Shown here piece by piece: positions 26,750-35,008 of a DNA stretch of 64,000 nucleotides. Below the pieces are notes generated by a model. It did not search any database and was not told where the DNA came from. It saw only the letters and a program-made list of their open reading frames with translations. The stretch is from NCBI GenBank assembly GCA_000830295.1, contig CP010425.1, positions 736,001 to 800,000 on the forward strand, written 5' to 3'. How positions within the stretch are numbered: the first letter of the stretch is position 1; every line of letters starts with the position of its first letter. The position numbers were made by a program, and so were the translations under genes. Source of the DNA: an archaeon GW2011_AR15. GTDB taxonomy: Archaea; Nanobdellota; Nanobdellia; Woesearchaeales; GW2011-AR15.

Positions 26750-26960
26750 AGCAACTAAAAAACAAACTTCATTAATTAAGCTTTGCGATGTTTCTTATTC
26801 CTTTTTTGCAGAAAGAGCAGCAGGGTATCATAGGAAACAGGGACATTCCTCGTTAAGAGTGGCTGTAAGAATCATAAAAATAAAAAAAATGAAAAAAATA
26901 TTTTATTCCTATGCTCCTGCACTACCTTATTAACTTTATCTGTAAGTGAATTAAAAGAAG

Positions 26961-27051
26961 TGGGCCCGAGCGGATTCTCACCAATCCTTACCAGCATTGA
27001 TGGGGCTAGTGTGTTTCCTCGCTTTGCTCGTCAAGCACACGTTATATAAAA
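26961..27051 (-). repeat. tRNA-Ile 3' trailer module with 16-bp copy of the tRNA 3' end
   Basis: tgggcccgagcggatt at 26961 and 27052; hairpins GTGTG..GAGCAAAGCGA..CACAC and CATCAAT-G-CT-GGTA-AG-G-ATTGGTG. Confidence 0.85.
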
Positions 27052-27669: not shown

Positions 27670-27772
27670 AAAAGTGGGACTTCATTGATTCTCATCAAGC
27701 CTTTAAGAAAAGCCTTGAGGGAAACAAATCCGGTTCTGTTAACAAGTTAACAGAACGACAAAATTAAAAAAG
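27670..27772 (-). repeat. tRNA-Phe 3' trailer module with degenerate (13/16) copy of the tRNA 3' end
   Basis: tgggacttcattgatt (27675) vs tgggacctcagggatt (27773); hairpin TCAAG-G-CTTT-TCTT-AAAG-G-CTTGA; 11-bp inverted repeat 27733-27756. Confidence 0.75.
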
Positions 27773-29286: not shown

Positions 29287-29399
29287 AAGCCTCCGAAGAT
29301 ATCCTCACTTGCGTTCGGAAACCTTTCGGAGTCTTTAAATTAAGCCTCCGAAGGGTTAAGTCACTTTCGTTCCTGAACCCACGTAGCCTTAATAAATTA
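29287..29399 (-). repeat. Two tandem tRNA-Thr minihelix-like trailer modules
   Basis: aagcctccgaag at 29287, 29342 and 29399; 20-bp identity 29336-29355 vs 29393-29412; caps GAACGAAAGTGA and GAACGCAAGTGA. Confidence 0.85.
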
Positions 29400-29500
29400 A
29401 GCCTCCGAAGGGAATTGAACCCTCGACCTGCGGATTGCTCCCAACCTTTTCTTAAAAGGCTGTTACAAGTCCGCCGCAATAGCCGCTATGCTACGGAGGC
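29400..29500 (-). tRNA. tRNA-Thr(TGT) with 28-nt intron at 37/38 (29436-29463)
   Basis: GCGGA-CTTGTA|intron|A-TCCGC; GCCTCCG/CGGAGGC acceptor. Confidence 0.92.
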
Positions 29501-29555
29501 ATTTTTGCCAAAGTAGCTTTCGAAAATCCTTGATTTTCGATGTGCTACGGAGGCA
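29501..29555 (-). repeat. tRNA-Thr 5' leader module with 13-bp copy of the tRNA 5' end
   Basis: tgctacggaggca at 29489 and 29543; hairpin TCGAAAATC-AAG-GATTTTCGA. Confidence 0.85.
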
Positions 29556-33521: not shown

Positions 33522-33603
33522 CTTTCAGGTACGCTTGAGCAAAGCGAAACGTACCTTCTCCGTCAATGCTGAAAAGGATTGGTGCGTAATCCTCCCAACC
33601 CCA
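33522..33603 (+). repeat. tRNA-Pro 3' trailer module with 16-bp copy of the tRNA 3' end
   Basis: AATCCTCCCAACCCCA at 33506 and 33588; AGGTAC..GAGCAAAGCGA..GTACCT; CGTCAAT-G-CT-GAAA-AG-G-ATTGGTG. Confidence 0.88.
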
Positions 33604-33610
33604 TTTTTTC

Positions 33611-33664
33611 GAGGTATTCAAGGTTCGGGACCTTGAGGTCTGGGTTCGAATCCCAGGAACCCCA
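33611..33664 (+). pseudogene. D-armless / 5'-truncated tRNA-Pro(CGG)-like sequence
   Basis: CAAGG-TTCGGGA-CCTTG, CTGGG-TTCGAAT-CCCAG, GAACCCCA; no D arm. Confidence 0.8.
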
Positions 33665-33787: not shown

Positions 33788-33896
33788 AGCGAGGGGGGGG
33801 ACTCGAACCCCCGATGATCGGGATCTACATGTCATAGCGTTAGCTCATCATCCCGGATGTTGCAGCCGATTGCCTTAGCCGCTTGGCGACCCCCGC
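33788..33896 (-). tRNA. tRNA-Cys(GCA) with 37-nt intron at 37/38 (33823-33859)
   Basis: ATCGG-CTGCAA|intron|C-CCGAT; CTGC/GTAG central helix; U73. Confidence 0.9.
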
Positions 33897-34873: not shown

Positions 34874-34933
34874 ATGAGCCTGCGAGGAGAACTCACTTGC
34901 GTTCGTGCTCCTCTGGTCTCATTCGCTTCGCTT
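34874..34933 (-). repeat. tRNA-Arg minihelix-like 3' trailer module
   Basis: atgagcctgcgagga at 34874 and 34934; CGAACGCAAGTGAG cap identical to the Thr module; AAGCGAAGCGAA next to the tRNA. Confidence 0.88.
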
Positions 34934-34934
34934 A

Positions 34935-35008
34935 TGAGCCTGCGAGGATTTGAACCCCGGTATTCAGCTTAGAAGGCTGATGTCCTATCCAGGCTGGACG
35001 ACAGGCTC
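34935..35008 (-). tRNA. tRNA-Arg(TCT)
   Basis: TCAGC-CTTCTAA-GCTGA; full cloverleaf. Confidence 0.95.

What the first reader, a model, noticed from the sequence alone, without database searches (positions are those of the whole stretch)
29287..29399. Class II module: acceptor+T-stem minihelix mimics capped by a tandem-GA/GNRA hairpin (Thr x2, Arg)
Seen: each unit folds as one long hairpin whose 3' strand is the cognate T-stem/acceptor strand plus discriminator. Its 5' strand resembles the cognate 5' acceptor strand (GACTCCG and GGCTACG vs GCCTCCG; GAGACCA vs GAGCCTG), and the top is GA-AC-GNAA-GT-GA. The proximal Thr unit keeps GGGTTCA before the cap, so it looks like an insertion into the T-loop. 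D and anticodon arms are absent. The tandem array at Thr implies repeated addition. Inference: possible RNase Z/CCA-enzyme substrates, decoys for tRNA-targeting integrases or toxins, or scars of iterative insertion.
Basis: partly seen in the sequence, partly recalled or inferred. Interest (0 to 1): 0.75.

Follow-up and report, generated by a model that had tools for sequence, protein, structure and literature searches.

The report
Fold-back inserts copying tRNA gene ends
Behind several tRNA genes of this small archaeon sit 52-60-base inserts made of a backward copy of the gene's own tail, a conserved capped hairpin and a forward copy of that tail; they are not tRNA look-alikes but likely a tiny, enzyme-less mobile element whose folded single strand would rebuild its own insertion site.

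Summary
The three hairpins are real and not an assembly error. They are not minihelix mimics. The 5' strand is an imperfect reverse complement of the gene's own 3' end. In 57 related units it pairs the discriminator in 51, against 9 of 47 for the genes' own -1 base. Where a tRNA has a wobble, it carries the complement (26) rather than the tRNA's base (3; neither 4). The spacer before it is often a second GA-capped hairpin, so one period closes into a rod capped at both ends. Cores are shared across isotypes (Thr/Glu). Four same-genus genomes have empty Thr sites. Units are scattered (12 of 201 genomes) and also occur in Patescibacteria. Best reading (0.45): a non-autonomous insertion element recombining as folded single-stranded DNA, like attC, with an enzyme in trans. 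A pre-tRNA trailer function is the main rival. Enzyme, intermediate and expression are untested. Ten paper searches found no description; E. coli tRNA-linked repeats are the closest. This scan reported the family before, in this genome and on other DNA.

The parts
29400..29500 (-). tRNA-Thr(TGT) gene with anticodon-loop intron; its last 13 bases (29400-29412) are the segment S that the units copy
29343..29399 (-). Proximal unit, 57-base period: AT-rich fold-back loop 29390-29399, antisense arm 29378-29389, GA/GA cap 29361-29372, copy of S 29343-29355
29288..29342 (-). Distal unit, 55-base period: loop 29335-29342, antisense arm 29322-29334, GA/GA cap 29305-29316, copy of S 29288-29298; core shared with the units behind two tRNA-Glu genes elsewhere in the genome
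29280..29287 (-). T-rich trailer after the last copy; likely the gene's original trailer, displaced (inferred from empty sites in relatives)
29489..29555 (+). 54-base insert at the 5' end of the same Thr gene with a 13-base duplication (29489-29501 and 29543-29555); a different module without an arm; precisely absent in one contig of a close strain
34935..35008 (-). tRNA-Arg(TCT) gene
34875..34934 (-). Arg unit, 60-base period: first cap 34922-34934 (closes the arm on the gene's own end), antisense arm 34909-34921, second GA/GA cap 34893-34904, copy of S 34875-34888; core shared with the Arg(GCG) unit

Best explanation
Each unit is a 52-60-base insert laid out as loop or cap, imperfect antisense copy of the tRNA's last 13 bases, capped hairpin core and sense copy of those bases, and it is likely a non-autonomous mobile element that would move as a folded single strand. 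Shown: the layout; the arm's complementarity to the gene's own end; shared cores; scattered presence. Inferred: one period, closed into a circle, would be a rod capped at both ends, in which arm and copy form a double-stranded version of the tRNA-end site. A recombinase supplied in trans (best guess a tyrosine recombinase, as for integron attC sites) would exchange one strand within that segment. This would leave the gene whole, duplicate 11-14 bases and push the old trailer downstream. Repeat insertion, and in other genomes local duplication, would build arrays. The mismatches in the arm (mostly A opposite G) and the G...A-closed caps would act as strand and shape determinants. How an arm is re-matched to a new isotype is not explained by my data.
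For: Arm vs reverse complement of the gene end, fixed register: 8.68/13 vs 5.48 with permuted partners, 0 of 2000 (28 archaeal loci); 7.9 vs 5.1 in 34 metagenome loci. Opposite the discriminator it is complementary in 51 of 57 and in 6 of 6 own units, against 0 of 6 gene -1 bases. Trailer bases before the first cap pair in 30 of 37. Periods cluster at 56-65 and exact copies at 11-14 bases. Empty Thr sites in same-genus genomes; 12 of 201 genomes in 12 genera; identical 52-base units behind two Glu genes 32 kb apart. A precise empty allele for the neighbouring 5' insert. Sister modules occur in antisense orientation at 5' ends and inside an intron, and one arm-bearing unit sits antisense at a Leu 5' end. 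The arm+core+copy hairpin is more stable on the top strand in 5 of 5, as RNA and as DNA. Caps fit the GCGNAGC/GCGNNAGC mini-hairpin, which is far more stable in DNA than RNA (PMC13037366, passages). The same cap marks spacers of a cassette array beside a tyrosine recombinase in this genome.
Against: No enzyme is linked to the units: no autonomous copy in 37 metagenome loci with up to 4 kb of flank, and the two tyrosine-recombinase-like genes are far from them. No strain lacking a class II unit was seen in 8 runs. The first-cap form was found only in sense at 3' ends (15 hits vs 0 control; antisense at 5' ends 4 hits vs 4 control), which suits an RNA role as well. Archaeal arms stop short of the T-loop where tRNA integrases usually cross (recalled). 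A 60-base circle is very small for a recombinase synapse (inference). The first fold-back is not strand-biased. 8 of 21 second caps are GNRA, an RNA motif. The arm matches the gene's end 7 times, the copy 3 times and neither 3 times where they differ, too few to fix the order of events.
Confidence: 0.45

Rival explanations
1. The unit is a cis-acting part of the pre-tRNA trailer: the arm can pair either with the gene's own 3' end (blocking the acceptor stem) or with the downstream copy (freeing it), a two-state switch or a guard for 3' processing, kept by selection and spread by gene conversion between tRNA ends.
For: Both folds are favourable as RNA, the downstream one by about 4-6 kcal/mol more in all 5 units folded. 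First-cap units are sense and 3' only. The T-rich trailer follows the last copy, so the unit is probably transcribed (inference). Compensatory pairs beside the cap: 19 of 21 vs 14.4 shuffled and 15 of 21 vs 8.6. E. coli tRNA-linked repeats are transcribed and processed (PMC8144298, passages).
Against: Most orthologous Thr genes do without it (22 of 27 printed) and different modules replace one another at one site. Sister modules lie antisense. Triloop caps suit DNA better.
Confidence: 0.22
2. The unit moves through RNA: a piece of pre-tRNA is cut out and ligated to a capped rod-shaped circle by the tRNA splicing machinery and re-enters by reverse splicing and copying into DNA, akin to mobile archaeal tRNA introns.
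For: A period folds as a closed RNA rod at -13.5 to -17.5 kcal/mol. A sister module lies inside a tRNA-Gly intron. Sense bias.
Against: No reverse transcriptase found in the genome. The intronic module and the 5'-end modules are in antisense orientation. I saw no bulge-helix-bulge at the unit junctions by eye (not formally tested).
Confidence: 0.13
3. One reading: units are released as minihelix RNAs that serve as RNase Z, CCA-enzyme or synthetase substrates, or as decoys for tRNA toxins or integrases.
For: The downstream fold has an acceptor-like stem ending in the cognate discriminator. As DNA, the spare 3' end could still catch integrases.
Against: Discriminator paired in 51 of 57. Only 1 of 57 arms is perfect, with mismatches peaking opposite base 69 (29 of 57). 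No T-loop. Arm bases follow the complement, not the tRNA. These enzymes' need for a T-loop and a free discriminator is recalled, not looked up.
Confidence: 0.1
4. Decayed remains of large integrative elements (attL/attR plus a terminator hairpin), or neutral template-switch duplications.
For: Partial tRNA copies commonly come from integration (10.1101/2022.07.05.498093, passages). One relative has a decayed unit (G012).
Against: Uniform 56-65-base periods, conserved caps across families and phyla, compensatory pairs, and an arm fitted to each target.
Confidence: 0.1

Closest known systems
E. coli tRNA-linked repeats (TLRs, e.g. behind tyrT; 22 copies at 10 loci). Source: PMC8144298, passages read
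   Same: Short non-coding units behind tRNA genes, 1-5 per locus, ending in a copy of the upstream gene's 3' end; function largely unknown.
   Different: TLR copies are 18-19 bp; the passages I read mention no antisense arm, GA-capped hairpins or antisense 5'-end copies; units here are about 60 bases; no Rfam family over cut-off on the units.
Integron attC sites. Sources: PMC3458562 (abstract), PMC9668308 (passages)
   Same: Imperfect, strand-biased hairpin proposed to recombine as folded single-stranded DNA; also known in archaea including Nanoarchaeota.
   Different: No gene cassette, the target is a tRNA end rather than attI, the stem is target-specific, and the enzyme is not identified. 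Works-like claim only.
Tyrosine-integrase islands and proviruses in tRNA genes. Source: 10.1101/2022.07.05.498093 (passages); crossover classes recalled
   Same: Gene left intact with a partial copy displaced beyond the insert.
   Different: No integrase or cargo, 60 bases instead of kilobases, internal antisense copy of the target.
REP sequences with Y1/HUH transposases; casposons and CRISPR spacer acquisition (all recalled, no paper read)
   Same: Small single-strand hairpins with irregular stems (REP); short duplication at tRNA ends and serial addition (Cas1).
   Different: No Y1 transposase or Cas1 found in this genome; units are tied to gene ends.

Membership tests
tRNA minihelix mimic | 5' strand equals the tRNA's 5' acceptor and T-stem strands | tested here: not met
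   Informative positions: complement 26, tRNA base 3, neither 4 in 57 units; acceptor 11 of 11 complement
tRNA minihelix mimic | Unpaired discriminator | tested here: not met
   Paired in 51 of 57 and 6 of 6 own units
tRNA minihelix mimic | T-loop on a 12-bp stem | tested here: not met
   Longer, interrupted stem with GA/GA cap
tRNA minihelix mimic | Released as RNA, CCA-added or charged | not testable with these tools
   needs RNA data or assays
E. coli-type tRNA-linked repeat | Unit ends in a copy of the upstream tRNA's 3' end | tested here: met
   11-14 bases here against 18-19 in PMC8144298
E. coli-type tRNA-linked repeat | Sequence kinship with described repeats | tested here: inconclusive
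   No Rfam match over cut-off on the units; no direct alignment to TLRs made
Tyrosine-integrase island | Partial tRNA duplication flanking the insert | tested here: met
Tyrosine-integrase island | Integrase gene in or beside the element | tested here: not met
   Neighbours are unrelated genes; recombinase genes lie elsewhere
Integron attC | Imperfect hairpin favoured on one strand | tested here: inconclusive
   Top strand favoured 5 of 5 for the downstream fold, not for the upstream fold
Integron attC | Follows a cassette ORF in an array | tested here: not met
   Units follow tRNA genes
Integron attC | R and L boxes; recombined by IntI | not tested
   No attC model run; the 300-aa recombinase scores below the IntI and XerA cut-offs
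REP / RAYT | Y1 (HUH) transposase in the genome | tested here: not met
   0 matches to PF01797
Casposon / CRISPR acquisition | Cas1 in the genome | tested here: not met
   0 matches to PF01867
Archaeal BHB tRNA intron | Bulge-helix-bulge at both junctions | not tested
   inspected by eye only

The most novel reading that the evidence does not exclude
The units are the smallest known mobile elements: about 60-base single-stranded DNA dumbbells, closed at both ends by GA mini-hairpins, whose stem is a self-carried, re-programmable copy of the target site, and which are inserted at tRNA ends by a host Xer/IntI-like recombinase that also runs this genome's cassette array; the family spans DPANN archaea and Patescibacteria.
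Probability: 0.25. Interest if true: 0.88.

Novelty: new variant of a known kind. Interest (0 to 1): 0.62.

Why it matters
Half of this genome's tRNA genes carry a duplicated end, and the same cap-and-arm layout recurs across small-genome archaea and Patescibacteria. If the units are mobile, they show site-specific insertion in which a 60-base folded strand carries its own target match, which is mechanistically new and possibly programmable. They would also offer a testable origin for tRNA-linked repeats, unexplained since their description in E. coli, and perhaps for this lineage's unusual tRNA introns. If they are trailer switches, they are an undescribed layer of tRNA maturation control. 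Either way they can mislead annotation of attachment sites.

Tried and rejected
Expression: no RNA holder listed among 20 runs, so no evidence either way. Copy-number variation of the class II units: no joint skipping them in 8 runs of contigs; contigs drop rare variants and both tables were cut. (free-register arm search) kept only 14 of 75 units and dropped real ones, including the proximal Thr and Arg units; it was replaced by the cap-anchored tests. In one search the one-gap alignment put the Arg(TCT) arm in a register that scores one position as tRNA-like; the predicted fold pairs A with U63 there; own-unit stem tally as printed is complement 2, tRNA 1, neither 1. Exact distal-Thr/Glu core: only 3 of 301 genomes. 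Haloarchaeal (6), other bacterial (34) and viral (4) loci with the first cap showed no fixed-register arm above control, though 5 of 6 haloarchaeal loci have a downstream copy. No longer, gene-carrying version in 37 metagenome loci. No Y1 transposase, reverse transcriptase or Cas1 in the genome. A generic repeat-arm-repeat scan gave 14 rows, 6 at tRNAs, and missed Arg(TCT) and Glu, so it is not specific. Weak Rfam matches on the region are far below cut-off. Paper searches found no description; the 2026 Nanobdellota complete-genome preprint (10.64898/2026.05.13.725050, passages) and PMC5737381 (passages) do not mention such units in what I saw; their supplements were not read and could bear on novelty. 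No protein search, fold or complex job was run, since no protein is tied to the units.

Full report
Setting. The window lies in a single-contig 1.16-Mb genome with intron-bearing tRNAs and archaeal genes such as topoisomerase VI A. I did not classify it directly. Named Woesearchaeota records carry the same core as the distal Thr unit (L214, L250), and earlier scan notes call it Woesearchaeota. The finding lies on the minus strand just behind tRNA-Thr(TGT), 29400-29500.

Observation. Two units follow the Thr gene (periods 57 and 55) and one follows Arg(TCT) (period 60). Each folds as described, with z-scores -1.68, -3.67 and -3.01 as RNA; DNA z-scores on the same strand are weaker, -1.45 to -2.26. 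The genome has three more: Arg(GCG) and two identical ones behind two tRNA-Glu genes (Glu(CTC) is my reading of a gene ARAGORN called Ser). In all, 20 of 39 scored tRNA genes have a 3'-end copy within 170 bases, against 0.44 expected; most of these belong to the two-hairpin sister class without an arm. Contigs from five runs cover the Thr units without a differing letter; two of the five may be the source DNA.

Is the 5' strand a tRNA mimic? A tRNA's 5' strand is itself the complement of its 3' strand, so only two kinds of position can tell a mimic from an inverted copy: wobbles in the gene's stems, and the base opposite the discriminator. The cap fixes the register. Among 31 archaeal rows, 28 had a full T-stem; 8 of the 31 are titled uncultured Methanosarcinales and were grouped with the DPANN-titled rows on my judgement. 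Their arms match the reverse complement of their own gene's end at 8.68 of 13, against 5.48 with partners permuted (0 of 2000). The 22 Patescibacteria rows give 6.23 against 4.25 (0 of 2000); haloarchaea, other bacteria and viruses do not pass in this register. In 34 distinct metagenome loci the base opposite the discriminator is complementary in 33, covering three different discriminator bases; the gene's own -1 base is complementary in 8 of 30. Pooled with one gap allowed (57 distinct units): discriminator 51 of 57 against 9 of 47; informative acceptor positions 11 of 11 complement; T-stem 15 complement, 3 tRNA-like, 4 neither. In this genome's six units the figures are 6 of 6 against 0 of 6. 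Related loci are not independent, so these counts overstate significance, but the direction is plain. The strand is an antisense arm.

The real layout. The stretch between gene and arm is not a spacer. In Arg(TCT) and in most collected units it is a first GA-capped hairpin whose flanking bases pair with the first trailer bases (30 of 37 Watson-Crick); in the Thr and Glu units it is a short AT-rich loop. So the arm can fold back on the gene's own end or forward on the copy; both folds are favourable and the forward one more so. One period, read as a circle, folds as a rod closed at both ends. Arms are imperfect as a rule: 1 of 57 is perfect, the commonest change is A for C (46 of 204 C positions, against 15 T for C), and mismatches within the acceptor part peak opposite base 69. 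The second cap is present as a small GA/GA hairpin in 22 of 59 units examined; of 21 distinct ones, 8 loops are GNRA, 7 are triloops and 19 run G to A, and the two pairs outside the cap covary (19 of 21 against 14.4 shuffled; 15 of 21 against 8.6), while pairs 3, 4 and 6 do not exceed shuffles. My pattern allowed only triloops in the first cap, so I cannot say tetraloops are rarer there. GCGNAGC and GCGNNAGC are the extraordinarily stable DNA mini-hairpins, much weaker as RNA (PMC13037366, passages).

Signs of movement. Cores cross isotypes: distal Thr and Glu agree at 8 of 8 and 7 of 8 bases beside the cap, the two Arg units at 7 and 8, but the two neighbouring Thr units at only 4 and 2, which favours separate additions over a recent tandem copy. 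Elsewhere identical tandem units occur (L328, L329), so local duplication happens too. Of 27 relatives' Thr loci printed (of 29 fetched), 22 have no unit, including 4 of 4 from the same genus; 5 have one, of several kinds, one decayed (anticodon calls there are rough). First-cap units occur in 12 of 201 genomes of the order, in 12 genera, with 0 control hits. Sister modules also sit at 5' ends on the opposite strand with about 12-base duplications, one lies reversed inside a tRNA-Gly intron, and one arm-bearing unit lies antisense at a Leu 5' end. One contig of run X17 (depth 3.8, 47 bases on the short side) skips exactly the 54-base insert at the Thr 5' end, with 13 bases fitting either side: an empty allele in a close strain, for that module only and on thin support. 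Against a purely DNA view, the first-cap form was not found antisense at 5' ends (4 hits, 4 control).

Enzyme. None is attached. The genome has no match to Y1 transposase, reverse transcriptase or Cas1. It has a 300-aa tyrosine recombinase scoring 186.6 against the integron-integrase model (cut-off 265) and 181.8 against archaeal XerA (cut-off 220), and a 165-aa relative. The larger gene lies, across the contig join, beside an array of small genes (PIN, Fic, ParE, MazE, YnfA) separated by five palindromic sites, four of them followed by the same GA cap. I recall the sites as dif-like; I did not test that. The shared cap is a lead, not proof. The model borrows from attC, which recombines as a folded single strand with one exchange resolved by replication (PMC3458562, abstract) and is known in Nanoarchaeota (PMC9668308, passages).

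Verdict. Shown: layout, antisense nature of the arm, shared cores, scattered presence. Inferred: mobility of the class II units, a single-stranded DNA intermediate, the recombinase. I give that mechanism 0.45, a pre-tRNA switch 0.22, an RNA-circle route 0.13, the minihelix or decoy idea 0.10 and decayed scars 0.10. The nearest described thing is the E. coli tRNA-linked repeat (PMC8144298, passages), which shares the copied 3' end. Ten searches of the held library found no description of the arm-and-cap form; subscription papers and supplements were not covered. Earlier agents of this scan reported the same family in this genome and in other archaea and Patescibacteria; their notes are leads, not independent support.

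Noticed in passing
G000 C1:1-6500 (L332) and C1:1153836-1154738 (L274): Array of small genes, several toxin-antitoxin-like, separated by five palindromic sites with GA-capped hairpins, beside a tyrosine recombinase intermediate between IntI and XerA models: an integron-like system.
   Followed up: partly
window 29489-29555: 54-base insert duplicating the 5' end of tRNA-Thr; a promoter-like AT box lies upstream of the duplicate; one contig of run X17 lacks the insert precisely.
   Followed up: partly
G000 C1:617016-617166: The tRNA-Gly(CCC) intron reads as the reverse complement of the two-hairpin sister module; the Thr(TGT) intron (window about 29435-29462) shares one of its hairpins.
   Followed up: partly
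window 26950-27051, 27670-27772, 33523-33603: Two-hairpin sister modules (no antisense arm) behind three more tRNA genes, each ending in a copy of that gene's 3' end.
   Followed up: partly
G000 C1:1013560-1013900 (L333): A sister module follows a small protein gene and is followed by a near copy of that gene's last codons.
   Followed up: no
window 33788-33896 and G000 C1:580535, 618352, 869719, 1111523: Five tRNA introns share a short TGATGA-hairpin-GATGA-like motif resembling a kink-turn or C/D box (resemblance recalled).
   Followed up: no
window 33604-33664: A partial tRNA-Pro-like copy (anticodon arm to 3' end) lies between the Pro module and tRNA-Ala.
   Followed up: no
L199, L219, L226, L263, L200, L259, L218, L261: Haloarchaea, actinobacteria and planctomycetes have tRNAs followed by the same cap and a downstream 3'-end copy, several with an internal antisense T-loop; a longer relative of this family.
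   Followed up: no
G000 C1:266500-266554 and L050: A 5'-end duplication with a partial arm in front of tRNA-Asn is shared by two genera, so some units may be old and inherited.
   Followed up: no
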